A stretch of DNA of 64,000 nucleotides, taken from the IMG/VR virus record IMGVR_UViG_3300005529_000029, positions 1 through 64,000 of that record; one strand, written 5' to 3'. The position numbers and the translations under genes are program-made. The DNA comes from a virus. Below the pieces are notes generated by a model. That model was not told the DNA's origin. It saw only the letters and a program-made list of their open reading frames with translations, and searched no databases. Positions 1 through 62,947 of this stretch are shown here, in pieces; the stretch's first letter is position 1; the number at the start of each line of letters is the position of its first letter.

Positions 1-4
1 TTGA

Positions 5-51: not shown

Positions 52-65
52 TCCCTGCCTTATCT

Positions 66-182: not shown

Positions 183-245
183 TTTTTCTTGACCTTAGAG
201 GGCAGAATATGTCAGTATATGTTTACGGAATAATGGAGGATTTTT

Positions 246-485: not shown

Positions 486-487
486 AA

Positions 488-3004: not shown

Positions 3005-6000
3005 TATGGCAAGGACCTCCTCATCGTGACTTCGACCGCAACCAGGCGTCCCGTCGTAATCGGACTTGCCTCTGATCCATCCCGAGCAATCTTTAGGTGC
3101 ATTAGTTTGTTTGCCCCGCTACCCGTAATAGTGATCGAGGTCAGAGAGCTATTAGTTATCTGATTCGCCGATCCAGGCGCAGCAGTCGTAACCGTATTCG
3201 CGGTATTGAATGCCGGATCATCGGTAGCGCTCGCATTGTCGCCTGTGAATGCGGTAGAAACCAGCCATTTACAGTTACCGCTAGTTGAGGAGGTAAACCA
3301 GATGATCCGGACATCAATATTGCCTGTAAAATCTAACGGCAAATACAGAGTGGTCTGCGCGGTGGAGGCTGTCGAAAAATCGAGTACTCCCTTTTGCGTG
3401 TTTGTCCCAGTGACACAGCTCGCAGATGCCGCATTGCTGGTCGGCAAATCCCAGAATGGGCCAGCAGTCGCGTTATTGCAGCCAGCCCCAGGCAAAAGCA
3501 CTTTAGCTGGAAATGCATTCTCAGCAATCGTCACGCTGCCATTGCCATTGTCGGTCAGCCATCCGGCTGGAACGGTTAGTCTTGATACGGCTTGAACCGA
3601 CGTGGCTGCATCAGCAGTGACCACGGTCAACGGTATAACTCTCTGACGATCCCTGGCTCTCGCCTGCGCATTGACTCTGTCCTCTACCGCCGCTGCCATT
3701 TTCGCATTGCCCGTGTTTCCAATGTGCAAGCCATCGCTGTACATATCGACACTTGGGTCGACCGAGCTAAAATAATCGACCAGGGCGATGTTGAGCCCAT
3801 AGCCAGCAAGTCGATCAACGACGTATCTAATGTTTTTGTTGTATAAGGCGACGTTTGCATCGCTTCCGCCAAACGTTGAGTATCCCGTGCTATTCGCTCT
3901 CGGTATCAAACCAGCATAGACCTGTGGACCTGATTGAGAATTGATACCGCCATTACCAGCAACCCAATCAATAGTTGCATTATTGCCGGTCGTGGCAGGA
4001 GCGGTGATGACGACTGTGTGTGCGCCAAAATCCAACCCGTCAATGATGATCGTCCTCGGGCTATAATTACGACTGAAGTCGGTATTCACCGTCGCTGCTG
4101 GAATGCAATTGAACGTTCCTTTTGACACGCCATCGACGGTTACGCTCCACACGCCGTTCGTCGTCACCCCATCAGAGACAGGACTTTCAATAAAAACCGT
4201 ATCTCCTAAAACCGGAGGGAAAGTGAGAGTAGACAATGTTCCTGTGGCAAATAGCGTCATGGCGCCGCCATAGGTTGAATTGAGCGTCCAGCTTCCTGTT
4301 TTGGTTACTGATGAGTCGTTGGCACGTATCTTAAGCGCATCAGGAATTCCCAGCCAAAGCAGTTCTGCTTCTAAGCCCTCACGAAACACTTGTACCGAAC
4401 CAGCAGTGGCGCTATGGCGTTCGTTGTTGGTTCCAATTAAGAGGAAGTTCTGAGTCGAGTTCGTTGTGGGGACAATAGTTGCATAGATCGCGTCGGCTTG
4501 GTCAGCAACCCACGAACCAGCAAGACCAGAATCGGTATAGTGGCCAAACCAGCCCTGGGCATTTGCGACTAGTTGCGTGTACCTGTGCGCGGCATCTGTT
4601 GGTCCGGTCGTGGCCGCGTCATCTGTCAGCGAGTCACCAAAGAAATGAACAGAGTTGCCGGTTGTGTTTAAGTTTTGATTGCCGCCCGTCAGAGCAGCGA
4701 ATGCGCCGCCCTCGGTCGAAAGCATTACTTGATGAGTGCCCGAGTCGTAATAGAATTTAGCGAAACCTGCCGCGCTAAGAGCAGGGACCGTTTGACCCGT
4801 AAGAATCAGTGGCGCTTTCAGAGTAAAATCGCCGTTGTTCTGGATCGTTGCTCGGCTGAATCCATTATGCGTCTGGAAATCGATGACGCCTGTTCCAGAA
4901 CCGCCACTATCGGCGCCTATTGTTGTCGAGCCAGCGTTAATTACACCGCCAGGATTTCCAAGCCCAGTACAGGCTGAGCAATTGATCACAGGCGTTCCGA
5001 GAAATGTTCCCGAGAGCGTTCCGCCAGAGATCGTCGGGCTTGTATATGTTCCTCCAATTATGCCGCCCGTGTTCGTTACTATGCCGGCGACGATTCCGCC
5101 ATTTATGGTAGGACTGTTGAGAACTGTTGTGTTGAGGGTCTTGCTCGACATAGTTCCGGGCAAGTCGCCATCTAAAATACTACTGAAACCAGTGTCAGTT
5201 CCGTCTGTTCTAACATATGTACCAGCACCGCCCCGAGGCACAGCGGCCCACTTATTGGCGGAATTTCCGACAATTATTGCGCCGCGGGTTGGTGATCCAG
5301 TAGCCGTATCGCTATGAAGCGAACCGAGTAAGCTATGGCTCAAAGTAATCGCGTTCACCTGTGCTGCGATCGCCTCAACTTCATCAGATGTTGCAAGCTG
5401 GATCTGAGAACCATTTAGATTATAGAGTTGATTAGCCGCAAGAGTTGTCTGAGTAATTGGCGATGTACTCGCTGGAATATTGTAATAGAACGGACCTTGT
5501 CGTGAGGCTCCATTCACGATCCACAGCACATAAAAGGTATTTGGCGAAAGCCCGATCGTGCTGTAGAGGCTGACCGTATAATTGCCACCACTATCGAGTG
5601 TCCGGCTAACACTGCTGCCACCAACGATAAAAAACCCGTCAAATGTCGTTGCAGTTTGCGCGAGAGCCCAGACAGCCTGTCCAACCATCGGAGAGCCATC
5701 AGGATTCGTCAGGGTTCCGTTGATTGTCGTCCTACTATTCTGTACGTTCAGACTTATTGTCGCCGCTGAACTGGTCACACTTCCAGTCGTACAAGAGCCA
5801 GTCGTAAATGCAGTAGCGGTGAACGTAAACGAATCCGTTCCCGCATATCCCGACGCGCTAGTATAGAGTACCAGTCCAGTCGCGCTATTCAATTGTGAGA
5901 GCGTTCCATGTGATGGTCCAGTGCCAATCGCATAGGTTATTGCGCAACCTTCAGGACTGACCGCGGGCATGTAGATCCTACGCACGAATCCTGTGATCGC

Positions 6001-6114
6001 ACCAATAGGCCCGAGATTCGATGCCACAGGTCCAGTAAATGCTCTGGCATTGATAGATGCCACTGTAATGATCAACAGACAGATCAGAGAGAGAGTCGTT
6101 AAGATTTTCTTCAT
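3004..6114 (-). CDS. Tail fibre/spike-like protein with Ig-like domain and SGNH/GDSL esterase; signal peptide
   Basis: FFGDSLT, GTNN and DGLH blocks; GPSHGTL...YAGTDSFTF Ig-like motif; likely start MKKIL at 6114 with AGGA RBS. Confidence 0.7.
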   Translation of the reverse strand: MKKILTTLSLICLLIITVASINARAFTGPVASNLGPIGAITGFVRRIYMPAVSPEGCAITYAIGTGPSHGTLSQLNSATGLVLYTSASGYAGTDSFTFTATAFTTGSCTTGSVTSSAATISLNVQNSRTTINGTLTNPDGSPMVGQAVWALAQTATTFDGFFIVGGSSVSRTLDSGGNYTVSLYSTIGLSPNTFYVLWIVNGASRQGPFYYNIPASTSPITQTTLAANQLYNLNGSQIQLATSDEVEAIAAQVNAITLSHSLLGSLHSDTATGSPTRGAIIVGNSANKWAAVPRGGAGTYVRTDGTDTGFSSILDGDLPGTMSSKTLNTTVLNSPTINGGIVAGIVTNTGGIIGGTYTSPTISGGTLSGTFLGTPVINCSACTGLGNPGGVINAGSTTIGADSGGSGTGVIDFQTHNGFSRATIQNNGDFTLKAPLILTGQTVPALSAAGFAKFYYDSGTHQVMLSTEGGAFAALTGGNQNLNTTGNSVHFFGDSLTDDAATTGPTDAAHRYTQLVANAQGWFGHYTDSGLAGSWVADQADAIYATIVPTTNSTQNFLLIGTNNERHSATAGSVQVFREGLEAELLWLGIPDALKIRANDSSVTKTGSWTLNSTYGGAMTLFATGTLSTLTFPPVLGDTVFIESPVSDGVTTNGVWSVTVDGVSKGTFNCIPAATVNTDFSRNYSPRTIIIDGLDFGAHTVVITAPATTGNNATIDWVAGNGGINSQSGPQVYAGLIPRANSTGYSTFGGSDANVALYNKNIRYVVDRLAGYGLNIALVDYFSSVDPSVDMYSDGLHIGNTGNAKMAAAVEDRVNAQARARDRQRVIPLTVVTADAATSVQAVSRLTVPAGWLTDNGNGSVTIAENAFPAKVLLPGAGCNNATAGPFWDLPTSNAASASCVTGTNTQKGVLDFSTASTAQTTLYLPLDFTGNIDVRIIWFTSSTSGNCKWLVSTAFTGDNASATDDPAFNTANTVTTAAPGSANQITNSSLTSITITGSGANKLMHLKIARDGSEASPITTGRLVAVEVTMRRSLP

Positions 6115-6193
6115 CGCAGTTTTCCTTTCTGAATATATTTCACTACGTAAAAACACCGCAATAATCCTGAAAGCGAATTCACTTTTTGTTTTT

Positions 6194-7162
6194 CTATGTG
6201 ATTAAATCCGCTGGCTGCTTATCAGGTGGTCCAGGATCGCTACCACCACTGCTACCACCACTACCACCGCTTGAAAATTCAACAGATATAGGTGTTGAAA
6301 ATGGACTCCAAGGTCCATTGATTCCTGCTGAGCTGTGCGCAACTTTTACATGTCGTGTCTGTAATCCAGTGTCAGAATGCCGAGTGACAAATTCATAAGT
6401 TGGATCAGAGATGCCTGCTAAGAGATCACGATAAGTTGTGGTCAGGTTTGTTGTGAATCCAGCATCATCGGCAGAGATAACTTGTCGCGCAACTGTGTAT
6501 GGACCGAAACCGCCAACTTTAAGAGTAATGCTCAAATCGCTTGAAGCCCCGAGCTGTGCAATCGTCGGAGTATTATTCTCTCGATTCTGAGCATACGGTC
6601 CATTGAAAGTGACATCTGCCCAACTCGAATATTTACGAATACCAAAAGCATTTATGGGATTGAAACCAACCCAGATCGTTTGATCTTTTGCCCAAAAGTT
6701 ATTGATCGTGATTTCCGTATTAATGCTATATGGTCCATACTCTTTCACTGCATGAGTAGGATCGCCATCTATCCTAACTCCAACGATTACACCGGCTGCA
6801 TTAATGGTTGGAGTAGGTAAGGATATTGGAAGCGCTTCCGGACGAAAGATTAAGTTTAATCCTCGGGAAGGTCGAACGACAATATTCATTCCAGGAGATG
6901 CAGTGCCACTTACTGTAACCTGTTGTGCCCATCCCTTACGTCCATGGCCGTCATCCTCAAGTCTGAAATTTACATGTGTTCCCACCGCTACTGATAAAGT
7001 CCCCGCTGGAATATTGCCACTCGAATCCGTTGAACCAATTGAACCGAGATCAGTATTCGTATCTGCGTTATAGGCTTTAATAGTCTTGCCAGCAATAGGA
7101 GTTAAAGACCCATCAGAGTCTTTAAATATGCTAACATTAAATGATCCGTAATTGCTCGACAT
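6194..7162 (-). CDS. Putative minor tail protein
   Basis: Position in tail operon, beta-rich sequence, GPWSPFS FnIII-like end. Confidence 0.55.
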   Translation of the reverse strand: MSSNYGSFNVSIFKDSDGSLTPIAGKTIKAYNADTNTDLGSIGSTDSSGNIPAGTLSVAVGTHVNFRLEDDGHGRKGWAQQVTVSGTASPGMNIVVRPSRGLNLIFRPEALPISLPTPTINAAGVIVGVRIDGDPTHAVKEYGPYSINTEITINNFWAKDQTIWVGFNPINAFGIRKYSSWADVTFNGPYAQNRENNTPTIAQLGASSDLSITLKVGGFGPYTVARQVISADDAGFTTNLTTTYRDLLAGISDPTYEFVTRHSDTGLQTRHVKVAHSSAGINGPWSPFSTPISVEFSSGGSGGSSGGSDPGPPDKQPADLIT

Positions 7163-34819: not shown

Positions 34820-35061
34820 TGATCACTACGATAGATTCTGTACCTGATTTAAGCAATTTTCGCGATCAGACAATTTTGCAGTTTAATGTATCTTGGCTAA
34901 TGTCCGATCAGATCACTGCTTTAATCGGTAAACTGATCTCAATTGATGGAGTGGCTGGTATCTGGCAAATAAAAAAGTGCGAGACTCGACTTCCTGGATT
35001 CACCACCGTAACTCTTTATGGATATGCTCCATCTAATGAGAAAACCCAGCAATCAAAATGA
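34795..35061 (+). CDS. Hypothetical protein
   Basis: Overlapping operon gene. Confidence 0.45.
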   Translation: MAMESRGMMITTIDSVPDLSNFRDQTILQFNVSWLMSDQITALIGKLISIDGVAGIWQIKKCETRLPGFTTVTLYGYAPSNEKTQQSK

Positions 35062-35240
35062 ATTATATAACCATCATTAATCCAACACCACGCGAACTCC
35101 CAGTCCAAATAACTGTATCCTCACCACTGGATAGATATGTATCTCCTAATGCGCTAGAATTGCCAGTACAGATTTCCATTAGTTGTCCTGTGCCGCCAAC
35201 TCCAGTTTCTGATTTGCAATTGCTATCCCTTCGCTATTAG
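35058..35240 (+). CDS. Small protein with internal ELPVQI duplication
   Basis: ATGA coupling; ELPVQITVS / ELPVQISIS. Confidence 0.4.
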   Translation: MNYITIINPTPRELPVQITVSSPLDRYVSPNALELPVQISISCPVPPTPVSDLQLLSLRY

Positions 35241-35424
35241 CGAATTTCTTTGTGCAATTTTTTATTTCCTGATTTTTCCACTCGCTTCATACGCATATTT
35301 TTGTTTTGGATATTTCGACAAGAGCGCTTATATGTGCCTGGCGCGCCAGCGCATTGCGACCCCCTTTAGCGAGCTAACGATCCACCCCTGGCACTAGCCT
35401 GGCGCGGGTTAGGTAGGGGAGCGT

Positions 35425-35886
35425 GTCAGGTAATCGGAGCTCGGTCGTATTAGGTAACTACCTGATACTGCGCGAGTTACGGTCATTTTGATACGTCACT
35501 TCGACTAATTCACTCAAAAATGTCGAATAGACACACAGATTTGTTACCTTCGGTGACGATTAACCAGAATCGGGTCAGTTCGACTCAAAACCGGTTAATT
35601 GACCGTCTTTAAACATATCCACTCGTCAGGTAATATCTTGATAAGTGTACATAATAAGACGTTTAGATACAGTAAGATAGGGATTATCTAGCGTAAGCTA
35701 TTACAAATAAAGCGTTTATCGTGACTTATGGCATGACGGTTGTATATAAGGTAGGTGACTCTAAACGAGTTCGGTCTCTGACAATCCATTACCTATAAAC
35801 CTGACTGTCTCATATTGTACGTCATTCTGACAGGAAAGACGGTCAGGTAATGACAGGTGACTGGGTTCGACCGTTCTTTGACAATC
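35425..35886. repeat. Dispersed GTCAGGTAAT repeats and two boxA-like motifs in a non-coding block
   Basis: GTCAGGTAAT at 35425, 35625, 35842; GGTCTCTGACAATC at 35773 and GTTCTTTGACAATC at 35873. Confidence 0.6.
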
Positions 35887-35932
35887 GAAGTACCACGACC
35901 GAAATCACATCTTAAGTATCGGAGATAATCAC

Positions 35933-37295: not shown

Positions 37296-37331
37296 AATCG
37301 ATTCTACATTTGTAGCAATATGCTTTTTATG

Positions 37332-37411
37332 TTGACGCATCTCTACACGCTTGTGTATAGTTGCCAAAGTCCAGCAAAACAGCAATATCAACTCTACACA
37401 GCTTTGTATAG
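37332..37411 (+). promoter_or_regulatory. sigma70 promoter with two 20-bp palindromic operators
   Basis: TTGACG-18-TATAGT (extended -10); CTCTACA-N6-TGTATAG at 37341 and 37392, third copy at 37620. Confidence 0.7.
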
Positions 37412-37420
37412 TTACGACCT

Positions 37421-37720
37421 ATGGAACGATTCTCAATTAAGCAGGCAGCAAGTAGGCTCGGCGTTATTCCTCGCCGCGTCTACCAGTTCATCGAACAGGG
37501 TAGGCTTGTCGCGCAAACTGATGAGTTCTCAGGCAAATTATTCATTACCGGCGATCAGCTTACCAAATTCAAGCGCCTGGATCGATCGCCAGGTAATCCC
37601 AATTTCAAGCAAAAGACATCTCTACACAGCGATGTAGAGTTAGACGCAGAGTCCACTGATACCGCGAGAACTTTTGAGCCTGATCCGGAAAGCAATTGGG
37701 CTCGCGCTTTTGACGATTAA
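37421..37720 (+). CDS. Excisionase-like HTH DNA-binding protein
   Basis: FSIKQAASRLGVIPRRVYQFIEQGRL. Confidence 0.75.
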   Translation: MERFSIKQAASRLGVIPRRVYQFIEQGRLVAQTDEFSGKLFITGDQLTKFKRLDRSPGNPNFKQKTSLHSDVELDAESTDTARTFEPDPESNWARAFDD

Positions 37721-39899: not shown

Positions 39900-39934
39900 A
39901 AGCGCTTTCACCAATTTCAAAAGGAGATAATCAC

Positions 39935-40255
39935 ATGGGCTATGAAACTTACCATCAACTCTACATTGACACCAATAATGAAGCCATCTGGAAGGCGATT
40001 GACGAGGATCCGACATATGCGGATGTCAAATATGCTGTCGGTTCTGATGGAACTAGCGGCGATAGCTGTAAATGGTATGACCACGAGGTAGATATGAGGC
40101 GCCTCTCGGCCCAATTTCCAGATGTTCTTTTCACCCTTAATGGCTCTGACGAAAATAACGAGGACATCTGGATCGAATACTATAAAGGCGGCAAGATGCA
40201 ACGGTGTCCAGCCATAATCACTTTTGATGAGTACGATGAATCAAAGCTAAGTTAA
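39935..40255 (+). CDS. Conserved phage protein (MGY...KWY type)
   Basis: KWYDHEVDMRRLSAQFPDVLFTLNG motif; AAGGAG RBS. Confidence 0.7.
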   Translation: MGYETYHQLYIDTNNEAIWKAIDEDPTYADVKYAVGSDGTSGDSCKWYDHEVDMRRLSAQFPDVLFTLNGSDENNEDIWIEYYKGGKMQRCPAIITFDEYDESKLS

Positions 40256-40266
40256 GGAGCAATTCC

Positions 40267-40755
40267 ATGTCAAGCATTCTATTTAACCTAGGCGAATACA
40301 AACACTTTGAAGAGAAAAGCGATCTGCTTAAACATCTCTACAACAGTTCGCGTCCATATACTCAGCAAGATTTGCCAGCGAGCGTGGGAGAATTTCTTTT
40401 TGAGCTTAACGCTGAAGCATATGCAGAAAGATATGCTGAGAACGCAGAGACCGGAAGTGAAATTGAAGAAGCGCGCGCCAATCTGTCATTTGATCCCTCT
40501 GATTATGACTTCGGCAAGGTCACTGACTGGAATAACCTGCTTCAAATCTATGATCTTCTTAAGCGAATTCGTTATCAATGCGATGAATTCCACGAGGGAC
40601 ATCCCGCAATGGATCGCTATGAGATTCTTCAACTGATGATAACTATCCTCTCTCAAGTGCTCATAAATAAGATGAAAGCCGGAAGTGAGTTTAACGACAT
40701 TCCCGCTAAATACTATACGTTCTCGGCGGCGACTGACAAAGAAACCCTTTTTTGA
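40267..40755 (+). CDS. Hypothetical protein
   Basis: AAGGAG RBS; LNAEAYAERY...IRYQC. Confidence 0.65.
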   Translation: MSSILFNLGEYKHFEEKSDLLKHLYNSSRPYTQQDLPASVGEFLFELNAEAYAERYAENAETGSEIEEARANLSFDPSDYDFGKVTDWNNLLQIYDLLKRIRYQCDEFHEGHPAMDRYEILQLMITILSQVLINKMKAGSEFNDIPAKYYTFSAATDKETLF

Positions 40756-41204
40756 CCTTTTGGGGTATACATATTATGCAAAATACAGCAGAATTGGATA
40801 AGAGTCTGACAGACCATCCTGGAACTATTGGTGGTGGCGCCGTCGTCAAGGTCTGGAATGAACCTGAAGGCAAGTTCTACACGATCCAGCGTGAAGACAG
40901 TTCAACTTTCCGGCTTCAGATCTTCCATGATCGGCAAGCATTAATCAACCGCCTTTCTGAGCTATTAGCAATCTTCAGAACGAAATTTGGAATACCTAAG
41001 AGCTGCGATCCTGGCGTTTATATTCGAGCATTAGGATACCGAACTGCCGCAAACGACATTGAACACATCTCTGTGGCTCATCTTCTGCTACGGCTTCCAG
41101 AAATCTCTCCTGATGCTGCGGTAATTACCAATGACGATATTAACGCCTGGCTTGAACCTCTCGGTCTCTATTTCGAGCCAAGGGAAAGTGAGCAATCCCA
41201 ATGA
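40752..41204 (+). CDS. Hypothetical protein
   Basis: Operon position. Confidence 0.5.
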   Translation: MTFWGIHIMQNTAELDKSLTDHPGTIGGGAVVKVWNEPEGKFYTIQREDSSTFRLQIFHDRQALINRLSELLAIFRTKFGIPKSCDPGVYIRALGYRTAANDIEHISVAHLLLRLPEISPDAAVITNDDINAWLEPLGLYFEPRESEQSQ

Positions 41205-41395
41205 AGCCACTTTATGCAAATACCTGTGGTGATTGCGGGAACCGAATAATTTCCAAGTCTATCTGGACACTTCCATTGCTCTTAATTTGGCACGATCTCA
41301 ACGTTCATGGACTTCTATTCACCGATGCCTGGAACCCTCGCAAGATCATCAGTCGCCACCATAAAACAAGACAACGAGAAAGAGAGGGCAAATAA
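41201..41395 (+). CDS. Hypothetical protein
   Basis: ATGA coupling. Confidence 0.4.
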   Translation: MKPLYANTCGDCGNRIISKSIWTLPLLLIWHDLNVHGLLFTDAWNPRKIISRHHKTRQREREGK

Positions 41396-41397
41396 TC

Positions 41398-41643
41398 ATG
41401 ACCAAAGAACAAGAGATCGAGCAGGCAAGACGGCAATATGACGCTTTAGGGCAATCATGTGATCGATTGCTTCAGGCTCAGATCAAAGCTCAATCAACCG
41501 GCAACTGGCCTCTCTTCAAGAAGATCAGGGATGCTCACTCGCGAGTGGTCCAGCGCCGGCGCTACCTGAAGGTTCTAATAGAAGTTTTACCAGGAATCCA
41601 GGGACAAGAGCCAAATCCGCGTTCAAAGTCTTTTTGGCGTTAA
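41398..41643 (+). CDS. Hypothetical protein
   Basis: Operon position. Confidence 0.5.
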   Translation: MTKEQEIEQARRQYDALGQSCDRLLQAQIKAQSTGNWPLFKKIRDAHSRVVQRRRYLKVLIEVLPGIQGQEPNPRSKSFWR

Positions 41644-41650
41644 AGCTGAC

Positions 41651-41679
41651 TTGATTTTGTAAACATTTAGTGATATATT
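41651..41679 (+). promoter_or_regulatory. sigma70 promoter upstream of the structured RNA
   Basis: TTGATT-17-TATATT with TG extension; ACATTTA at 41663 and 41693. Confidence 0.65.
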
Positions 41680-41684
41680 AAGAC

Positions 41685-42457
41685 AATACCGGACATTTAA
41701 GCTCTAGAGCCGGTATTCAGCCTCAAGTTCGATTTCGGCGGAGTTCCAATGACAGGCAATCAGCAAATACACACACAGAGATTGTCCTCTGATTACCTGC
41801 TGGGACTCCGCTCTGAGTTTCCCCTGGCGGGAAGGTCTATCCGAATCCATAAGCAAAGGAAAGGAGAGTGCGCATACAACCAGGTGGGCGCTATAGACTT
41901 CACCGATGTCCTGGGCATTTACGCGGAAAACTGCCGTAGTGGTTTCCCTGAGTCCAGATCGACATCTGCCGAGATGCGTCCTGAAATGGTTTCTGGAGCT
42001 GTGATGCTTGAAAACGTAGAGCATCGCCAAGGGTTCACAGGCATGAGGTCGGTTGCTCGACCGGTTTGTGAGAATCGTAAATCCCCGCGCTCCATGGCCA
42101 AATTTAATCCCATAAGACTTTGGGATCGCACAACACTCTTTGACAAAGTGCCGGAGCTGGAATCCAGAGAAGTACACGCTGAAGTCTTGTAAAAGACGAG
42201 TCAGCCTGGAAACACAGTGAAATCGGCCACGTCTCAGGAACAGAGCTCTTAAACTCACCTGAGGCCCATTTCGCCGTCATCGCGAACGGACACCGGAGAA
42301 AATAGTATCCGGGCCAAGCCGGTCTAACCACGGTAGCGATGAGTCGGGCGACGTATGCGATTTTTTCGTTGACCATGTGATTACGACAAAGCAAGTAGTC
42401 GACAGTTTGGCTTTATATGGGAGATCGGACTATCGAAGCGGTCTCCCATCTTTTTTT
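41685..42457 (+). ncRNA. Large structured non-coding RNA candidate (class unassigned)
   Basis: More than a dozen nested stems with G-U pairs and a GTAA tetraloop between a promoter and a terminator; no convincing ORF. Confidence 0.7.
42417..42457 (+). terminator. Intrinsic terminator
   Basis: ATGGGAGATCG...CGGTCTCCCAT-C-TTTTTTT. Confidence 0.85.
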
Positions 42458-42523
42458 AATTTGCTTATGGATTTCGATAGACCGCACAAATCAAATTTCA
42501 ATGGAGTCAGGAGACAGACCACC

Positions 42524-42730
42524 ATGCAAAGAACCGGCAAGTATATATGTTATTTCCTACAGAGTGATACGAACAAAGAATTTGACTCGCTGCAGTTAGC
42601 ATTAGAGGCTGCGAGAAAATACGTGGGGAATGCTGCCTATACTAAACCATTCCCACACGAAGAAACATATTTGTTCGGTCCTGGCGATGGTACAACTAGC
42701 GTCACAGTCCGGGAAAAAATCATATTCTAA
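42524..42730 (+). CDS. Hypothetical protein
   Basis: AGGAG RBS before ATG 42524, a more likely start than 42377. Confidence 0.55.
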   Translation: MQRTGKYICYFLQSDTNKEFDSLQLALEAARKYVGNAAYTKPFPHEETYLFGPGDGTTSVTVREKIIF

Positions 42731-42744
42731 AATTAGAAGCACAT

Positions 42745-43167
42745 ATGTCCCAAACTATAGAGATTCTTGAAAAGCAGATCGAGGAGCTGAGGTTTCAGCT
42801 TCAACAAACGAAGGATCGTGAAGCGAGTCTCCTCAGATGGATTAAAGAGATTCGTGATTGGGTAGAGGAACAAGAGGCTTGTATCCAATGCGATGACTTT
42901 TTATATTGTGAAAAGCATGCATTCAATGGTTACAAGATCGATGTGATGGGTGCTTATGAGTCCTACCTGATGCTGCTCCAGAAGTTCAAGAAAGTATCAT
43001 ACAAAGCAAATCAGGCAATAGAGTTCCTAACCTGGCTCGATGAGTTCATATCAAGCGAGACCGCTACAGTTCAGGCAATCTCCACCGTCGAACTAATTCG
43101 GGAGCGAGTAACACTGATCAAAGAACAGATGGAGTTTAATGATGACACTTCAGCAAATAAAGGCTAG
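42745..43167 (+). CDS. Hypothetical protein (coiled coil, CxxC...CxxH)
   Basis: Operon position. Confidence 0.55.
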   Translation: MSQTIEILEKQIEELRFQLQQTKDREASLLRWIKEIRDWVEEQEACIQCDDFLYCEKHAFNGYKIDVMGAYESYLMLLQKFKKVSYKANQAIEFLTWLDEFISSETATVQAISTVELIRERVTLIKEQMEFNDDTSANKG

Positions 43168-43417
43168 AGAGCAGGTCGCTCACTTCTCTTTTGCCGACGT
43201 TAATAAGTGCTTTATCGCAATGGGATTTCATCACGTCACAAGTATCTATGGTGGCATTCAGAGTGAAGCTGGGATCCATATCTATGCGAAGAATCGTTCC
43301 AGAATCCTGGCGATCAGGAATGGCAGCGACGGAATATGGTCATTCTATCACGAATCAGGCAAGGCATTTCTTGATCGAATGATCGGCGTTAAGAGTGAAC
43401 TGGAGAAACTCACATGA
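43139..43417 (+). CDS. Hypothetical protein
   Basis: GGAG RBS. Confidence 0.55.
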   Translation: MMTLQQIKAREQVAHFSFADVNKCFIAMGFHHVTSIYGGIQSEAGIHIYAKNRSRILAIRNGSDGIWSFYHESGKAFLDRMIGVKSELEKLT

Positions 43418-43635
43418 CAAAAGAGCAACTCGAGAAGTTTATTAAGATTCGCAACGAATCACCTTTCAATTCCAATATGCAATTTCAAATTGATGCTAAT
43501 GCGGCCGGTTTCGATAACAAGGAATTAGGCGAAGCTCAGAAGATCGACTTCAATGATGGTTATGGATGGCAATGGATAACGCCCCATGGCCGCTTGATCG
43601 AGTCACCTGCAGGCCGGCTTACCCTCTTGAATTAG
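43414..43635 (+). CDS. Hypothetical protein
   Basis: GGAG RBS, ATGA coupling. Confidence 0.55.
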   Translation: MTKEQLEKFIKIRNESPFNSNMQFQIDANAAGFDNKELGEAQKIDFNDGYGWQWITPHGRLIESPAGRLTLLN

Positions 43636-43644
43636 GAGACTGAT

Positions 43645-43986
43645 ATGAAAGACCTTGATGATTACCTGGCCCTGCAGAACAAAATCTTCAAATACTTTGG
43701 CTATCAAGAAGACTGGCGAGTTATTCCAATCGATGATCGACGCCAGATGTATTGGTCAATCAACGGTCCTTTAGATTCTTCACAGACGGAGATTATATAC
43801 CACCAGGACCGCGACACGGTAATCGCGCAGGATGGCAATCACTATTGTGACACGCTTTACACTCAGCGCTTCTTACCAAAATGGGTCTATGAAGGTCCAG
43901 ATTTTACCATGGTTGCAGTCAACACTCACGTAGATGGCAATCAATTCCTTGCAATCTTTGATAACGCGAAACGAGTTCAGCTATAG
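43645..43986 (+). CDS. Conserved phage protein
   Basis: YFGYQEDWRVIPI...YTQRFLPKWVY...VDGNQFL; AGGAG RBS. Confidence 0.65.
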   Translation: MKDLDDYLALQNKIFKYFGYQEDWRVIPIDDRRQMYWSINGPLDSSQTEIIYHQDRDTVIAQDGNHYCDTLYTQRFLPKWVYEGPDFTMVAVNTHVDGNQFLAIFDNAKRVQL

Positions 43987-44000
43987 ATGGAGGCTACACA

Positions 44001-45982: not shown

Positions 45983-46657
45983 ATGGACTGCCCTTTCTGC
46001 GGAGATGAGATTCTTACCGAAATAGAGATTGGCCCAGATCGAGAGTTTTATGCTCAGTTTTGTTGCTCTGAAGCCGAGAGCATCATGCATGAGATGGATC
46101 GTAAGACCTGGGCCAATATTCTTCGAGAATGTGCTGGCATCAAAATCCGTCAACCCTTTGATGCAGGTCTCACCTGGCAATTAGATTTCGGCCTCGAAAT
46201 CGTCACAGTCGAACAAAGAGACGCAAAAGACTTTATTCGGAAATGGCATAGGCATAATCCTCCTCCGGCTGGCTGGAAATTCGGTTTTGGAATAGCCAAT
46301 GGCGCCGATCTTATTGGAGTTTGCTGGGTAGGTCGTCCAGTCGCTCGAATGCTGGACCATAAGACAATCATCGAAGTTAATAGATTATGTGTTCGAGATG
46401 ATCTGCCAAAAGCTCTCACTTGGAATGCCTGTTCTCAGATGTATGGCGAGGCCGCGAGAAACGCCCAAGCAATGGGCTATCAGAAGATAATCACATATAC
46501 ACTGATTACTGAGGAAGGTACGGCATTAAAAGCTGCTGGCTGGCAGAAAGAGTTGGTTTCGAGTGGTGGCACTTGGGATCGGCCAAGTAGGTATAGAAAG
46601 CAGAAGTCACCGACAGTTCCTAAGATTCGCTGGGCAAAATATCTCGTTTCAGTTTAA
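45983..46657 (+). CDS. XF1762/Mom-like GNAT-fold putative DNA modification protein
   Basis: WHRHNPPPAG, VGRPVARMLD, EVNRLC, NACS, IITYTL..E.G..LKAAGW. Confidence 0.75.
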   Translation: MDCPFCGDEILTEIEIGPDREFYAQFCCSEAESIMHEMDRKTWANILRECAGIKIRQPFDAGLTWQLDFGLEIVTVEQRDAKDFIRKWHRHNPPPAGWKFGFGIANGADLIGVCWVGRPVARMLDHKTIIEVNRLCVRDDLPKALTWNACSQMYGEAARNAQAMGYQKIITYTLITEEGTALKAAGWQKELVSSGGTWDRPSRYRKQKSPTVPKIRWAKYLVSV

Positions 46658-47720: not shown

Positions 47721-48869
47721 ATGATAAAGAATAATCCAGATGCTCCGATGGAGTTCACATTAAAGAAAGAAGACTTCCTGCGAGAGTTAACGCTGATCCA
47801 GGGCGTCATTGAAAAGAAGAGCACGATCCCAATCCTCTCGTATATTGCGATCGCTGCAAACGAGATAGGTGAGGATGGCAAAATCACTTTGATTGGCACA
47901 GATATGGATTTAAGTCTGACATCGACATGTCCGGCGAATATCAAGAATGCCGGCGTCGTTACAGTATCTGCAAAGCGGCTATTTGAGATCGTCAGGAATC
48001 TGCCAGATGAGCCGATCCATATCAAATGGATCGCTAATGATGGTATCGTCCTAACCTGCGCCAAATTCGTCTCCAAAGTCCTCGGCGCCGATCCAAATAC
48101 TTTCCCGGCGATCGAGACAACTGAGCAGCCAGGTATCGAAGCGAATAGCAAGATTCTTGCCGATCTGATCGCCAGAACCTCATTTGCAATCACCACGGAT
48201 GAATCTCGATATGCTCTTAATGGCGCTCTAATACTTCGAGAAGGAAAAAACCTCGTAATGGTAGCGACTGATGCGCACCGGCTTTCAGTAGCTCAATCTC
48301 AAGCTGAAGAACCATTAAAGGCTGGCCAGAAGTTACGGGCCTTGATTCCAAAGAAGACACTTTCAATGCTCTCAAAGTTATTGATAGGCATCGATGAGAC
48401 AATCACCTTCATTGAAGATGGCAATCACTTCTTCTTCAATATTGGAGAGCGAGTTCTAGTATCGAGATTACTTTCTGGCCAGTTCCCGAATTACGAGCTG
48501 GTTCTCCCGAAAGATAACAACAAGAAGTTGGTTGTAGACGCCTCTAATCTTGGGAAAGCAGTTCGAAGGGTCTCTCTTATGGCAGATGAGCGTAGTCATG
48601 CGGTCAAGTTGTCAGTATCCGATAAACAGATCCAACTTGAGACTAGATCGAGCGAGACCGGCGAAGCAACTGAGATTCTTTCTGCAGAGTACGAAGGACC
48701 AGCTCTTACACTCGCATTCAATGCTCAATACGTGACTGAGTTGCTCAGTGTTATCAGTGCCGAGAAACTGGAATTCGCCCTGAAGGATGAACAGAGCCAA
48801 ATCCAGATTCGTCCTATTGGCGAAGCAAAGATCGATCACAAATACATCGTGATGCCAATGAGGTTATGA
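47721..48869 (+). CDS. dnaN: DNA polymerase III beta sliding clamp
   Basis: STIPILS, GTDMD, ESRYALNG, VATDAHRL, GQFPNY, FNAQY, YIVMPMRL. Confidence 0.96.
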   Translation: MIKNNPDAPMEFTLKKEDFLRELTLIQGVIEKKSTIPILSYIAIAANEIGEDGKITLIGTDMDLSLTSTCPANIKNAGVVTVSAKRLFEIVRNLPDEPIHIKWIANDGIVLTCAKFVSKVLGADPNTFPAIETTEQPGIEANSKILADLIARTSFAITTDESRYALNGALILREGKNLVMVATDAHRLSVAQSQAEEPLKAGQKLRALIPKKTLSMLSKLLIGIDETITFIEDGNHFFFNIGERVLVSRLLSGQFPNYELVLPKDNNKKLVVDASNLGKAVRRVSLMADERSHAVKLSVSDKQIQLETRSSETGEATEILSAEYEGPALTLAFNAQYVTELLSVISAEKLEFALKDEQSQIQIRPIGEAKIDHKYIVMPMRL

Positions 48870-49405: not shown

Positions 49406-51049
49406 ATGTCGGCCATAATAGAAGTGCAAAAACCACAGCATAGGAAAGAACGAGCTAACCCGGACTGGCCGGTTAAGGTCTACTCATATTGGATTGAGCC
49501 AATAGGCGATATCCCGGAATGGTTTTGGTTATTCCATGATCATATGCAACTACTCTGGAACGATATGGTGATTGCGCATGATGCTTTTATTGACGAACGT
49601 GAATTCTCTGAAGAATCAGATGGGAAATGGGATACAGATCGTAAACGGCTTGAATTCTCTGGCCTACGTGAGAAGCTCAAGAATGTGGCCAAGTCTAAAA
49701 AGGGTATTCTTCCTAGCTCATGCTATTATGAGGTTAGGGATCGATTTCTCATCACGATGGGCAGATATTGGAATCCTGACTCCACACTAAAACGCAGACG
49801 AAACGAAACAAAGAATTTCGATCTTGGGCGACCTGGAATGAAATTTGGTCGCAATAAAGTACTCATCCCACATGATTTGAATGCTGCAAATATCTCAACG
49901 TCTATTCTCTTTTCTAATAAAAAACCTCTCACCATTTTGCAGCGCACAAAACAACAGGGGCCGACGCGAGGAATTTTTGAGACACTCGGTTATAACTTTA
50001 ACTTTCGCATCAATCTTCATCGGCCGATTCCAAATGGTAATATCAAGCGTATCGCTATTGTCGGGGAAATGGTTAAACCATTTGGATGGCAGTGGCGACT
50101 GAACCTGACCATTGAAGAGCCACCAGTAAGACCTCAAAGGAAGAATGGTAGGGTTGCAGCAATCGACCTTGGATGGCGTTTAATGGACGATTGTATTCGA
50201 ATAGGCGTGTTAGTTGATAACAGTGATAATGCTATTGAACTATCCATTCCGCTGGATTTTGCGAATAATTCGCTAAGACGTCAAAGAGAGCATTTCATGG
50301 ACGTGACCGATGCATGTCTTCCTATACATTCTATTCCAGACATCTGGAAAGCTCAACAGGAGTCAGACCTCATCTTAGAAGTCTGCAAAAATCGTCTAAC
50401 CGCTCTTATTCCTGAGCTTTTACCAAATAAGGTTGCATGGGATAAGGCTCGACATAAGAGTCTTATTAAGTTACTCAATACATTGCGGGAAGATCATCCA
50501 GAGAGTTCCGCAATTGCAGTTATAGAGCAGTGGCGTACGACAAACTGGGTTCTACATAGAAGATGGCGGGCAGCATATGAACGATTCATGAGATGGAGGC
50601 GTGAAATCTACAGAGTCCTGGCTGCGGAGATTGCTTCTACGTATGACGAGATCGTTTTAGAGGATCGTTTGAATCTAGCAGAGATGTCGAGAGACGAACA
50701 GGCACCACCAGCTATCAAAGCAAGTCAAAAATACCGACACTGGACATCGCTTTATCTCTTTAAAGAATGCTTAAAATATGCGATGGATAAACAGCAAAAA
50801 CTCATTATCGCGGGTAAAACTGCTTACTCAACAGCAACTTGCTCAACCTGTGATGGTAAGATTAATACCGATGCTTCACTCTATCTAACCTGTGCTAATG
50901 GGCATACCTTGGATCAGGATCTTAATGCAGCGCGAAACCTATTAAAATCATATCCAGAATGCGAGAGCCTCCCAGGGTTAGAGTCGCCGATTAGGCACTC
51001 GCAACTTTCTAAGTGCGTTAGGACGCTAAGTCTTTTAAAATCACTATAA
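49406..51049 (+). CDS. cas12m: Compact type V CRISPR effector, Cas12m (V-U1/V-M)-like
   Basis: RuvC-I IDLGWR (D254), RuvC-II VLED (E419), Zn finger C479/C482/C496/H500, RuvC-III DQDLNAARN (D505); LWND and HRPIP motifs; array 9 nt downstream. Confidence 0.8.
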   Translation: MSAIIEVQKPQHRKERANPDWPVKVYSYWIEPIGDIPEWFWLFHDHMQLLWNDMVIAHDAFIDEREFSEESDGKWDTDRKRLEFSGLREKLKNVAKSKKGILPSSCYYEVRDRFLITMGRYWNPDSTLKRRRNETKNFDLGRPGMKFGRNKVLIPHDLNAANISTSILFSNKKPLTILQRTKQQGPTRGIFETLGYNFNFRINLHRPIPNGNIKRIAIVGEMVKPFGWQWRLNLTIEEPPVRPQRKNGRVAAIDLGWRLMDDCIRIGVLVDNSDNAIELSIPLDFANNSLRRQREHFMDVTDACLPIHSIPDIWKAQQESDLILEVCKNRLTALIPELLPNKVAWDKARHKSLIKLLNTLREDHPESSAIAVIEQWRTTNWVLHRRWRAAYERFMRWRREIYRVLAAEIASTYDEIVLEDRLNLAEMSRDEQAPPAIKASQKYRHWTSLYLFKECLKYAMDKQQKLIIAGKTAYSTATCSTCDGKINTDASLYLTCANGHTLDQDLNAARNLLKSYPECESLPGLESPIRHSQLSKCVRTLSLLKSL

Positions 51050-51058
51050 ATTGCCGCT

Positions 51059-51289
51059 GTGACAACTCTTGCTCAACCGAGTCTCGGTTGAGACACTGCG
51101 CTGCCAATTCCTTGGCGGAAAGCTCAAAAAGTGACAACTCTTGCTCAACCGAGTCTCGGTTGAGACGTCTTGCCTCTGCTTCTCTCCTCGAGCCTTTCAC
51201 TGGTGACAACTCTTGCTCAACCGAGTCTCGGTTGAGACAGCGGAGGACGCGAGCGACAGCCTACCCTAATCCGCGTGACAACTCTTGCT
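51059..51289 (+). CRISPR. Mini CRISPR array: 3 full repeats, 1 truncated repeat, 3 spacers of 36 nt
   Basis: GTGACAACTCTTGCTCAACCGAGTCTCGGTTGAGAC at 51059, 51131, 51203; first 15 nt at 51275. Confidence 0.97.
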
Positions 51290-51363
51290 GAATTTTATTA
51301 ATGAATATATAATTCTGCTGGTTATCATTGGGTTATCTTTTTGAACGAGAGTTTGACGGACCT

Positions 51364-51390
51364 AGGGCTTCGAAAGAGGCCCTTTTCTTT
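51364..51390 (+). terminator. Intrinsic terminator after the array
   Basis: AGGGCTTC-GAAA-GAGGCCCT-TTTCTTT. Confidence 0.8.
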
Positions 51391-61463: not shown

Positions 61464-62237
61464 ATGTCATTATTGCCTGCGCAAGAAATTGCGTCTGAAT
61501 CTTTCTCTGAGCTTTCACCGGAGTTCACTGCAAATGGACTTGCCAGAGAGTTCGAGAGTGATTCCTTAACTGAGACTCAGATTAGTCGCCTGCTAAATGG
61601 TTTCGAGCAGGCGACTAACGTTATCGATCTAATCATCCCTCTGGTTCCAAGGATCAAGAATACTGAGCATGTCAGTTACTTACGCGATGCTTCTGATAAG
61701 TTAGGTGAAAAGTCCTGGCGTTTAAAGATCGCCTGTGATTCCGAGCTTATTCACCGAGCTGAGGCCAAACGTGGCCGAGGCCACAAAGACCTCGATGGTA
61801 TTGGTGTCGTCGCTCAGGTTAGGAAACTGGCATACGAAAAAGGCGTTTCAGCACGTCAGATATTCCTCAATGATCAGATCCACAAAACATTCTTCAAAGA
61901 ACCCGACGAAAATATTGAAAGCGCAGCCACCACTTTAGGACCGACTTTTTTCAGGATCGCTCTCTCTGCTGAGGATCCAAAGACAGCAATTAAGGTCTTT
62001 GCCAAACAGAAAGATGACAATCCTTTCTTTAGCACCCGCGATGCTGAAGTGATGGTGGGTAAAAAACCTTTCAGACGGGTCGACTTTGAGAGAGTTGAAC
62101 ATTTAATTCAAGCAGGTCAAGCAGTGGTTGACATTTGGCAAACACACTTCGCCGACCTCGAGGATGATCCCGAAATCCGTAGCGCGTTTAATGAACTTGA
62201 GAAGGAAATCAAATCGTTTAACGAGGGTAATGTATGA
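61464..62237 (+). CDS. Hypothetical protein, possibly DNA-binding
   Basis: AAGGAG RBS. Confidence 0.6.
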   Translation: MSLLPAQEIASESFSELSPEFTANGLAREFESDSLTETQISRLLNGFEQATNVIDLIIPLVPRIKNTEHVSYLRDASDKLGEKSWRLKIACDSELIHRAEAKRGRGHKDLDGIGVVAQVRKLAYEKGVSARQIFLNDQIHKTFFKEPDENIESAATTLGPTFFRIALSAEDPKTAIKVFAKQKDDNPFFSTRDAEVMVGKKPFRRVDFERVEHLIQAGQAVVDIWQTHFADLEDDPEIRSAFNELEKEIKSFNEGNV

Positions 62238-62947
62238 TTTGGCCAACATTAGATACGCCTGCACCGCCACTATCAGATACGTTTATTAGTGATATTGATA
62301 CCGAGGTAAAACATTTGCATCAATATTGTTATGATCATTATAACCTTTTAGCAGATCCGCTTTGGAATGACGCTGAATTCCCAAGCGATGGTAGTCCTAT
62401 TCCATACAGAAATAATGCCATCCGATATCCCCTTGGTCCTAATACTGAAGCCTATTGGCGAGAATATACGATTACTGATACCGACACTGGAACATATTTA
62501 GCAGGCATATGCCATTATCCAGTTGATCGTGATGAAGCGATCCAGGTAATTGCCAGCCTGATATACACGCTGAAAACCTCTTACGGCGATGAATATTCAT
62601 TCTCGATTCTGGAGCTCATTAAAGAATATGAGGCAATATCTCATCTAAGCGAGATTCTTTATCAGCCTTGTGATAATCAAGCTGGTGCCCATCTAGCAGG
62701 TTATATCTACCTCCTAGAAGCCGAAGAGACGGGATCTTATAAGATTGGTCGTGCAAAGGACCTAGACAACCGCATTAAAACATTTGAGGTAAAACTGCCA
62801 TTTGAAACCGAACTGCGCCATTCAATCAAAGTTCAAGACATGGCCTGTGCGGAGTTGGCTCTTCACAAAAAGTTTGCAGGTCGCCGTATAAATGGCGAGT
62901 GGTTCAAATTAACTCCTGAAGACGTTTCCTGGATTTGTTCATTATAG
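62234..62947 (+). CDS. T5orf172/GIY-YIG domain protein
   Basis: GYIYLL...YKIG...RI...E..LH..F...RINGEWF. Confidence 0.85.
   Translation: MIWPTLDTPAPPLSDTFISDIDTEVKHLHQYCYDHYNLLADPLWNDAEFPSDGSPIPYRNNAIRYPLGPNTEAYWREYTITDTDTGTYLAGICHYPVDRDEAIQVIASLIYTLKTSYGDEYSFSILELIKEYEAISHLSEILYQPCDNQAGAHLAGYIYLLEAEETGSYKIGRAKDLDNRIKTFEVKLPFETELRHSIKVQDMACAELALHKKFAGRRINGEWFKLTPEDVSWICSL

What the first reader, a model, noticed from the sequence alone, without database searches (positions are those of the whole stretch)
41685..42457. Unannotated ~770-nt highly structured RNA in the early region
Seen: between a promoter (41651-41679) and a strong terminator (42417-42457) much of the sequence pairs: 41685-92/41710-17; 41738-48/41801-11 enclosing 41753-63/41789-99; 41833-40/41893-900; 41905-16/41952-66; 41994-99/42089-94 enclosing 42001-08/42020-27 and 42035-42/42064-71; 42107-12/42121-26; GCTGA-A-GTCTT-GTAA-AAGAC-GAG-TCAGC (42178-205); 42217-23/42268-74 enclosing 42232-38/42258-64; 42293-97/42308-12. 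Deviations are mostly G-U wobbles, which favours plus-strand RNA structure over DNA palindromes. Known: phages carry large ncRNAs such as GOLLD and ROOL. I could not match this to RNase P, tmRNA or group II intron motifs by eye. Inference: a large phage ncRNA, possibly a new class.
Basis: partly seen in the sequence, partly recalled or inferred. Interest (0 to 1): 0.85.

Follow-up and report, generated by a model that had tools for sequence, protein, structure and literature searches.

The report
Structured early phage cassette, probably mRNA
A self-contained 800-base promoter-to-terminator unit in an uncultured soil phage folds more tightly than its neighbours, but it carries a 147-codon reading frame that is also kept open in its only known relative, so it is more likely an oddly structured message for an orphan protein than a new class of large non-coding RNA.

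Summary
The hairpins, promoter match and terminator are in the sequence as described. The unit folds better than shuffles (z -2.7 to -3.2) and better than 14 coding control stretches (z +1.0 to -2.3). The excess is almost the same on the minus strand, the ensemble is not unusually well defined, and no Rfam family matches.

ORF 41749-42192 fills 57% of the unit and has a GGAG Shine-Dalgarno 5 nt upstream. Its only relative among 1.8 billion representative proteins is P0002 (145 aa, 43-45% identity, E 2e-12). P0002 is open over the same length and ends at the same place.

The frame does not look like a protein:
- its codon score equals that of random ORFs
- there is no three-base periodicity
- AlphaFold pLDDT is 31
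- only 2 of 30 replacements in the conserved parts are conservative

A 24-29-nt sequence just past the terminator pairs with codons 29-38, but only in read-through RNA (-39.5 kcal/mol). That resembles an RNase III retroregulation site.

My odds are about 0.55 for the mRNA of an atypical orphan protein with regulatory RNA structure, and about 0.27 for a genuine large ncRNA. Covariation could not be tested, because no relative's DNA could be obtained.

Other first-stage readers flagged this same stretch; nothing similar was noted on other DNA.

The parts
41651..41679 (+). Sigma-70-like promoter TTGATT-17-TATATT with a TG extension. The predicted start is about 41685-41687.
   Evidence: Consensus scan. 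It lies directly after the stop codon of the upstream gene (41641-43). The match is not statistically supported.
41685..41717 (+). 5'-terminal stem-loop, AAUACCGG...CCGGUAUU (8 perfect pairs), at the predicted 5' end of the transcript.
   Evidence: The 146-nt leader has z -2.64 (4 of 200 shuffles fold as well).
41736..41813 (+). Long hairpin (41738-48/41801-11 enclosing 41753-63/41789-99). It buries the GGAG Shine-Dalgarno (41740-43) and flanks the AUG (41749-51).
   Evidence: Unpaired probability of 41738-41747 is 0.0.
41749..42192 (+). ORF147, an orphan 147-aa frame (P0001). The only relative is P0002 (145 aa).
   Evidence: speak for coding. Searches show weak or absent coding signatures.
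41834..41862 (+). Left arm of a long-range inverted repeat, inside codons 29-38. It coincides with the conserved block IR(I/T)HKQ(R/N)KG and with the point where similarity to P0002 begins.
41994..42094 (+). Nested three-helix domain (41994-99/42089-94 enclosing 42001-08/42020-27 and 42035-42/42064-71). This is the least conserved part of the frame.
42121..42180 (+). Most conserved block, WDxTTLFDKVPELExREV (19 of 23 aligned residues from W125 to the C-terminus are identical to P0002). It contains the boxA-like CTCTTTGACAA at 42136-42146.
42178..42205 (+). Two-step hairpin GCUGA-A-GUCUU-GUAA-AAGAC-GAG-UCAGC. The stop codon UAA sits in its GUAA loop.
42217..42312 (+). 3'-UTR hairpins 42217-23/42268-74 (enclosing 42232-38/42258-64) and 42293-97/42308-12.
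   Evidence: The 3' part including the terminator has z -2.58.
42417..42457 (+). Intrinsic terminator: 11-bp stem 42417-27/42439-49, 11-nt loop, then C and U7. It works in the plus direction only.
   Evidence: Sequence. Folds.
42455..42483 (+). Right arm of the long-range inverted repeat, starting in the terminator's U-tract. It pairs with 41834-62 only in read-through RNA.
   Evidence: 29 nt, 86% complementary; the 24-nt core matches 22 of 24, with 0 expected by chance.: -39.5 kcal/mol, pair probabilities about 1.0 in read-through RNA and absent from the terminated RNA.

Best explanation
This is a stand-alone, moron-like early cassette whose RNA is the message for an orphan, probably unfolded 147-aa protein, wrapped in regulatory RNA structure. 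It is not a dedicated large non-coding RNA.

Proposed working (steps marked shown or inferred):
1. A sigma-70-type promoter at 41651-79 starts the transcript at the foot of a 5'-terminal hairpin, which would protect the 5' end. The sequences are shown; the function is inferred.
2. A 24-pair hairpin buries the Shine-Dalgarno sequence, so translation of ORF147 would be throttled. The fold is predicted; the effect is inferred.
3. ORF147 is translated. Its reading frame, length and C-terminal motif WDxTTLFDKVPELExREV are kept in the one known relative (shown). Most of its residues drift freely.
4. The strong terminator at 42417-57 ends the cassette transcript.
5. RNA that reads through the terminator gains 42455-83. 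This pairs with codons 29-38 in a 26-30-bp duplex. That would be an RNase III-type substrate that cuts ORF147 out of read-through transcripts, as in lambda int/sib retroregulation. The pairing is shown by computation; the cleavage and its purpose are inferred.
For: ORF and translation signals:
- The ORF is 147 codons (164 stop-to-stop). Random sequence with the same dinucleotide make-up gives an ORF this long in any of six frames only 7% of the time.
- GGAG lies 5 nt before the first ATG. An SD core precedes 27 of 41 genes of this phage but only 10% of all ATGs.

The relative:
- It is the only one among 1.84 billion representative proteins. P0002 is 145 aa, E 2.4e-12, 43-45% identical, aligned in one frame over residues 30-144 with only in-frame gaps. 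Its N-terminal extension has similar length (32 vs 30 residues) and its last residues are the same.
- Neutral mutation to this level of identity leaves the aligned part free of stops in only about 5% of trials.
- No shorter fragments of broken relatives were found.
- No hit to the conserved peptide patterns passed tblastn in the viral, metagenome or genome collections.

Other strand and known RNA families:
- The minus-strand 184-aa ORF has worse statistics and no Atlas recognition.
- There is no Rfam match at gathering score or at E up to 10.

Cassette and long-range pairing:
- Promoter and terminator.
- Local GC is 0.49 against 0.42-0.46 in the flanks.
- Long-range duplex.
- RNase III control of lambda transcripts is established (reference list of PMC5371410: Plunkett and Echols 1989; Steege et al. 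1987).
Against: Intrinsic coding signals are absent:
- Codon score is -0.002. Random ORFs give -0.015 +/- 0.053 and 13 small neighbouring genes give 0.170 +/- 0.055.
- There is no three-base periodicity: chi2 6.4, p 0.38, while neighbours scaled to the same length give 12-67.
- The amino-acid make-up of both P0001 and P0002 falls within the spurious-ORF distribution.
- ESM Atlas mean pLDDT is 0.27 (on a 0-1 scale) and AlphaFold2 pLDDT is 30.9, with no residue above 50.

Replacements between the two homologues are radical and mostly single-base:
- 7 of 62 are BLOSUM-positive overall, and 2 of 30 in the better conserved parts (P 0.0007 against the 32-38% seen in terminase controls of equal identity).
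- The mean BLOSUM score of -0.77 equals the neutral-mutation simulation, -0.71.

The Shine-Dalgarno sequence is fully base-paired in the predicted fold. The evidence for ORF retention rests on a single relative known only as a protein sequence.
Confidence: 0.55

Rival explanations
1. A genuine large (about 770 nt) structured non-coding RNA of an undescribed family. On this reading the ORF is fortuitous, or kept open only because the nucleotide sequence is conserved, and the conserved blocks are RNA motifs.
For: - The unit has its own promoter match and terminator.
- MFE z is -2.7 to -3.2, lower than all 14 coding controls.
- There is no codon bias, no periodicity and no predicted fold.
- The replacement pattern matches neutral nucleotide change rather than protein selection.
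- Both homologues have the composition of out-of-frame translation.
- The best conserved blocks coincide with RNA-level features: the left arm of the long-range duplex and a boxA-like motif.
- The least conserved part of the frame is the nested-helix domain, where an RNA could vary by covariation.
Against: - A 147-codon ORF with an SD by chance has a probability of roughly 0.035 x 0.1.
- The same frame must also stay open, in register and with the same end, in a relative at 43-45% identity. My rough estimate is 0.2-1%, built.
- There is no Rfam match.
- The folding excess is nearly equal on the minus strand.
- The ensemble is not well defined.
- A partial back-translation test of the helices against P0002 gave 6-12 broken pairs and 1 compensatory pair. 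This is weak evidence and depends on the alignment.
Confidence: 0.27
2. A cis-acting read-through control region for the genes downstream. The RNA would carry a nut- or put-like antitermination signal (boxA-like CTCTTTGACAA plus the GUAA-loop hairpin) ahead of a checkpoint terminator, and ORF147 could even be an unfolded N-like factor.
For: - No sigma-70-like promoter is predicted on the plus strand between 41679 and 48000, so the genes from 42524 onward appear to depend on passing the strong terminator.
- The boxA-like motif lies in the most conserved block. The exact pattern YTCTYTGACAA recurs once in the early leader at 35.87 kb (2 matches found, 0.23 expected). A near copy, TCTCTGACAA at about 35.78 kb, falls outside that pattern.
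- A 5-bp stem with a GNRA-type loop lies 38 nt downstream of the motif.
- The protein is Arg-rich and predicted to be unfolded, as lambda N is (the lambda N comparison is from my own knowledge).
Against: - There is no Pfam, PHROG or NCBIfam match to any antiterminator.
- The protein's net charge is only about +3, from my own count of K, R, D and E in the translation.
- The boxA match is short and its spacing to the hairpin is not lambda-like.
- The promoter scan has no statistical power.
- No Rfam hit to any family, including any antitermination RNA the library holds.
Confidence: 0.1
3. A DNA-level element: a 650-bp segment (41834-42483) bounded by 24-29-bp inverted repeats, either a MITE-like insertion or an invertible switch. 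On this reading the hairpins and the ORF are incidental.
For: - The inverted repeat is highly non-random: 0 expected, 22 of 24 matches in the core.
- Similarity to P0002 starts within 5 nt of the left arm.
- GC content is higher than in the flanks.
Against: - There is no other copy of the arm in this phage record or in IMG/VR.
- No target-site duplication is visible at the flanks.
- No recombinase or transposase family was found among the 26 ORF translations of the window scanned with Pfam.
- No joints or inverted forms appear in contigs of four metagenome runs, though coverage is low.
- The one non-Watson-Crick position that can still pair is G-U on the plus strand, which fits RNA pairing.
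Confidence: 0.06

Closest known systems
Phage morons: single genes with their own promoter and terminator inserted between phage genes, as defined for lambdoid phages (from my own knowledge)
   Same: A promoter match, one ORF, an intrinsic terminator, and a GC content 3-6 points above the flanks, embedded in a co-directional gene array.
   Different: - The ORF shows no coding statistics and no predicted fold.
- The 225-nt 3' UTR and the amount of RNA structure are unusual for a moron.
- Absence from related phages cannot be checked, because no related phage was found.
Lambda int/sib retroregulation and the RNase III site in the lambda N leader (cited in the reference list of PMC5371410)
   Same: A long duplex that becomes complete only when transcription passes a terminator. 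It pairs distal sequence with the upstream gene's RNA, which is the logic of sib.
   Different: - In lambda, sib is a local hairpin spanning the terminator. Here the arms are 592 nt apart and the upstream arm lies inside the coding frame.
- RNase III cleavage is not shown here.
GOLLD (RF01998) and ROOL (RF03087), large ornate RNAs of phages and prophages
   Same: Size class (500-800 nt), phage location and many hairpins.
   Different: - There is no match to either covariance model, even at E up to 10.
- Those RNAs are ORF-free and supported by extensive covariation. This unit carries a conserved 147-codon frame, and covariation could not be tested.
Dual-function RNAs such as Staphylococcus aureus RNAIII or Bacillus SR1 (from my own knowledge)
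   Same: A structured RNA that also carries a translated frame. This would reconcile a maintained ORF with nucleotide-level conservation.
   Different: Known examples encode peptides of 26-50 residues, not 147. No regulatory target is known here.

Membership tests
Any Rfam 15 family (GOLLD, ROOL, RNase P, tmRNA, group I/II introns and others) | Match to the family covariance model at its gathering score | tested here: not met
   No hit in the whole window at gathering score. On 41300-42800 at E up to 10 the only hit is a chance miRNA match of 16 bits. ARAGORN finds no tRNA or tmRNA.
Large structured non-coding RNA (generic) | Folding energy clearly below shuffled controls, specific to one strand | tested here: inconclusive
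   z is -2.68 to -3.17 on the plus strand and -2.31 on the minus strand. Entropy z is -1.07. The value is lower than all 14 coding controls.
Large structured non-coding RNA (generic) | Helices supported by compensatory changes in relatives | not testable with these tools
The four metagenome runs hold identical sequence. A back-translation proxy gave 1 compensatory and 6-12 broken pairs.
Large structured non-coding RNA (generic) | No conserved open reading frame | tested here: not met
   The 147-codon ORF is kept as a 145-codon ORF in P0002.
Protein-coding gene | ORF with a ribosome-binding site, retained in relatives | tested here: met
Protein-coding gene | Codon bias, three-base periodicity and protein-like composition | tested here: not met
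Protein-coding gene | Conservative replacement pattern between homologues | tested here: not met
   7 of 62 replacements are BLOSUM-positive overall and 2 of 30 in the conserved parts, against 32-38% in terminase controls.
Protein-coding gene | Match to a known family or a confident predicted fold | tested here: not met
   Pfam, PHROGs, NCBIfam, PADLOC and PDB give nothing. pLDDT is 27-31.
Phage moron | Own promoter and own terminator flanking one gene | tested here: inconclusive
   The terminator is clear from sequence and folds. The promoter is only a 9-of-12 consensus match plus a TG extension, and no transcript data exist.
Phage moron | Absent from related phages whose flanking genes are adjacent | not testable with these tools
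   The flanking genes have no relatives in IMG/VR. The nearest terminases are about 40% identical, and their records lack the region.
sib-type retroregulation site | A duplex of 20 bp or more that is complete only in RNA extending past the terminator | tested here: met
sib-type retroregulation site | RNase III cleavage and destabilisation of the upstream message | not testable with these tools
   This needs an experiment.
Lambda N/nut antitermination | An N-family protein and a boxA-boxB site | tested here: not met
   There is no family match. Only an 11-nt boxA-like motif is present, with a GNRA-loop hairpin 38 nt away.
MITE or invertible segment | Terminal inverted repeats plus a target duplication, further copies, or a nearby recombinase | tested here: not met
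   Inverted repeats are present. There are no further copies, no duplication at the flanks and no recombinase among the ORFs scanned.
tracrRNA of the phage's own Cas12-like locus | An anti-repeat complementary to the 36-nt CRISPR repeat | tested here: not met
   Duplex energy with the repeat is -25.5 kcal/mol, at the background median.

The most novel reading that the evidence does not exclude
The unit is a new family of large phage RNA, either purely non-coding or dual-function. On this reading its nucleotide sequence, not its protein, is what selection conserves, and a translated frame is merely kept open. Its fate would be switched by a 26-30-bp clamp that forms only when the terminator is read through.
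Probability: 0.25. Interest if true: 0.65.

Novelty: new member of a known kind. Interest (0 to 1): 0.33.

Why it matters
If the best reading holds, this is one more orphan early phage gene. It has an instructive layout: a buried ribosome-binding site and a read-through-dependent long-range duplex that could act as a lambda-sib-like retroregulator.

The case also has methodological value. Hairpin density together with a promoter and a terminator is not enough to call a large ncRNA. Equally, an ORF conserved in one relative is not enough to call a protein when every intrinsic coding measure fails.

If the minority reading is true, this would be a new large phage RNA family with only two known members.

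Tried and rejected
Searches that found no relatives:
- DNA similarity to GenBank phages and PLSDB plasmids: none.
- Relatives of ORF147, of P0002 and of three flanking or nearby genes in IMG/VR: none.
- JGI metagenome contigs and GTDB genomes, two scans each: none.
- Fifteen phage records sharing a roughly 40% identical terminase: only chance matches.
- Word-based protein searches for near-length and shorter relatives: only P0001 and P0002.

Sequencing runs:
- No RNA holder is listed.
- Four DNA runs (soil and mine metagenomes, three studies) hold fragments identical to the window across this unit. The single difference is G>T at 43539, outside it. They therefore give no variation and no joints.

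Ideas rejected:
- tracrRNA or anti-repeat: rejected.
- Self-targeting by the three CRISPR spacers: none within 8 mismatches.
- Minus-strand ORF184 as the real gene: rejected on statistics, on the absence of an SD, and because the Atlas does not recognise it.
- An internal promoter at the TTGACA inside the conserved block: no -10 element follows it (read from the sequence).
- ESM Atlas look-alikes of ORF147: best score 0.82, which is chance level.

Full report
CONTEXT

The window is the first 64 kb of a 75,239-bp linear IMG/VR virus record, estimated at about 79% complete. Structural and lysis genes run on the minus strand from 1 to 32.8 kb. A dense array of small plus-strand early genes follows from 33 kb. 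The nearest terminases in GenBank phages and in IMG/VR are only 38-41% identical, so the phage has no close described relative. Identical DNA fragments occur in soil and mine metagenomes of three studies.

THE OBSERVATION

Thirteen of the 14 listed internal helices are present exactly as written, perfect or with G-U pairs and at most one mismatch. The exception, 41905-16/41952-66, pairs over only 6 bp as written.

The promoter is TTGATT-17-TATATT with a TG extension at 41651-79. Such matches are as common in shuffled sequence as in the real one, so it is only a plausible match.

The terminator is an 11-bp stem (42417-27/42439-49) followed by C and U7.

The 772-781-nt RNA has an MFE of -262.3 kcal/mol. 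z is -2.68 with 20 shuffles and -3.17 with 40 shuffles. Fourteen coding stretches of equal length from the same early region give z between +1.0 and -2.3. A running mean over 200-nt windows puts the unit at the 4th percentile.

The structure is therefore above chance and above the neighbours, but not extreme. The minus strand scores z -2.31. Positional entropy and ensemble diversity are not significantly better than shuffles. The CRISPR array at 51.0-51.4 kb and the leader at 35.3-35.5 kb are stronger.

No Rfam family matches, and there is no tRNA or tmRNA.

THE READING FRAME: EVIDENCE FOR CODING

ORF 41749-42192 covers 57% of the unit. Four lines of evidence speak for coding.

- Chance. Random sequences with the unit's dinucleotide make-up contain an ORF of 147 codons or more, in any of six frames, in only 7% of trials.
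- Ribosome-binding site. GGAG lies 5 nt before the first ATG. An SD core precedes 27 of 41 genes here but only 10% of all ATGs.
- A relative with the same frame. An exhaustive phmmer search of 1.84 billion representative proteins found exactly one relative, P0002. It is 145 aa, comes from a 995-bp ENA contig, and scores E 2.4e-12. It aligns in a single frame over residues 30-144 with only in-frame gaps. Its N-terminal extension is of similar length and its end is the same (...REVxA..VL stop).
- Retention is unlikely by chance. Mutating the window's ORF neutrally to the same amino-acid identity leaves the aligned part free of stops in about 5% of trials. Adding the in-frame gaps and the open N-terminus, I estimate well under 1% for chance retention. 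Broken relatives should have been visible as short fragments or as tblastn hits to the conserved peptide patterns, and none was found.

THE READING FRAME: EVIDENCE AGAINST A NORMAL PROTEIN

- The codon score (-0.002) is that of random ORFs (-0.015 +/- 0.053). It lies 3 sd below the 13 small neighbouring genes (0.170 +/- 0.055).
- There is no three-base periodicity: chi2 6.4, p 0.38. Neighbours scaled to the same length give 12-67.
- The amino-acid composition of both P0001 and P0002 sits in the distribution of spurious ORFs.
- ESM Atlas mean pLDDT is 0.27 (on a 0-1 scale) and AlphaFold2 pLDDT is 30.9 throughout.
- There is no Pfam, PHROG, NCBIfam, PADLOC or PDB match.
- The replacements between the two homologues are radical. 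Only 7 of 62 are BLOSUM-positive, and only 2 of 30 within the better conserved parts (P 0.0007). Terminase pairs of the same identity show 32-38%.
- 65% of replacements need only one base change, and the mean BLOSUM score (-0.77) equals the neutral simulation (-0.71). The conservation therefore looks nucleotide-level.

The minus-strand 184-aa ORF scores worse on every measure and lacks an SD.

WEIGHING THE TWO SIDES

Neither simple model fits well. Taking rough likelihoods, the existence of the ORF, its SD and its retention favour translation by more than the intrinsic measures disfavour it. The prior for such a cassette also favours a gene.

I therefore place about 0.55 on a translated but atypical protein: unfolded, fast-drifting and motif-bearing. 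I place about 0.27 on a true ncRNA. A dual-function RNA would reconcile both sets of facts and is counted within the novel case.

RNA FEATURES WORTH KEEPING UNDER EITHER READING

- The predicted 5' end sits at the foot of an 8-bp terminal hairpin.
- The SD is fully paired in a 24-pair hairpin.
- The stop codon lies in the GUAA loop of a two-step hairpin.
- 41834-62 (codons 29-38, the conserved block IRxHKQxKG) is complementary to 42455-83, which begins in the terminator's U-tract.
  - The arms are 29 nt long and 86% complementary. The 24-nt core matches 22 of 24, with 0 such matches expected by chance.
  - The duplex is worth -39.5 kcal/mol. It is absent from the terminated RNA and predicted with probability about 1 in read-through RNA.
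  - Another first-stage note (e1-6098078) had flagged this pairing, and I confirmed it here.
  - It has the logic of lambda int/sib retroregulation by RNase III (literature cited in PMC5371410). Cleavage itself is untested.
- No further plus-strand promoter is predicted before 48 kb. The terminator may therefore be a checkpoint that downstream genes must pass.
- The most conserved block contains a boxA-like CTCTTTGACAA. The exact pattern YTCTYTGACAA recurs once in the early leader, which supports a minor antitermination rival.

ALTERNATIVES TESTED AND SET ASIDE

- tracrRNA for the phage's Cas12-like locus: no anti-repeat.
- Mobile or invertible segment bounded by the inverted repeat: no other copies, no recombinase and no joints.

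LIMITS

Covariation, the test that would settle the matter, could not be run. No RNA run is listed.

Noticed in passing
window 49406-51390: A 547-aa ORF has a Cas12f1-like TNB domain (Pfam E 1.5e-8). It is followed 9 nt later by three full 36-nt repeats (GTGACAACTCTTGCTCAACCGAGTCTCGGTTGAGAC), three 36-nt spacers and a truncated fourth repeat. This looks like a phage-borne miniature type V CRISPR locus. It is the most structured stretch of the early region (z down to -5.6). No spacer matches the window within 8 mismatches.
   Followed up: partly
window 34820-35932: A 1.1-kb stretch with no ORF of 100 aa or more lies upstream of the early genes. It has strong local folding (35301-35500, z -3 to -4) and two similar units, GGTGACT...TCTYTGACAATC, about 100 bp apart (35755-35788 and 35857-35888). 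It may be a control region, an origin, or another RNA.
   Followed up: no
window 37401-37600: An isolated 200-nt window with z -4.27 on the plus strand, overlapping the 3' part of ORF 37320-37637.
   Followed up: no
window 42426-42437 and 42473-42484: The right arm of the long-range repeat can also pair with the terminator's loop and 5' stem (12 nt, 92% complementary). Read-through RNA therefore has two competing partners for 42473-84.
   Followed up: no
window 1-6200: GC content is 0.50-0.54, against about 0.44 elsewhere. The stretch includes a TylF-like methyltransferase (1367-2164) and a 1050-aa minus-strand ORF. The protein database places P0001 on a 102,742-bp contig, which is longer than the 75,239-bp virus record. 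The record may therefore be a trimmed provirus or a shorter assembly.
   Followed up: no
window 39900-44000: Fragments from four metagenome runs (soil in 2017 and 2020, mine in 2024; three studies) match the window without a single difference across the unit. The one difference, G>T at 43539, lies outside it. This is a remarkably clonal, widely spread phage or prophage.
   Followed up: partly
window 45983-46657, 47721-48869, 62234-62947: Three family matches: a Mom-family protein, a full three-domain DNA polymerase III beta clamp, and a T5orf172/MUG113-domain protein (putative GIY-YIG-like nuclease).
   Followed up: no
window 41685-42457: The trinucleotides TTA, CTA and TCA (stops on the minus strand) are depleted to 0.027 per nt, against 0.047 +/- 0.008 in the window (0.3rd percentile). 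This explains the 184-codon minus-strand ORF. The cause is unknown.
   Followed up: partly
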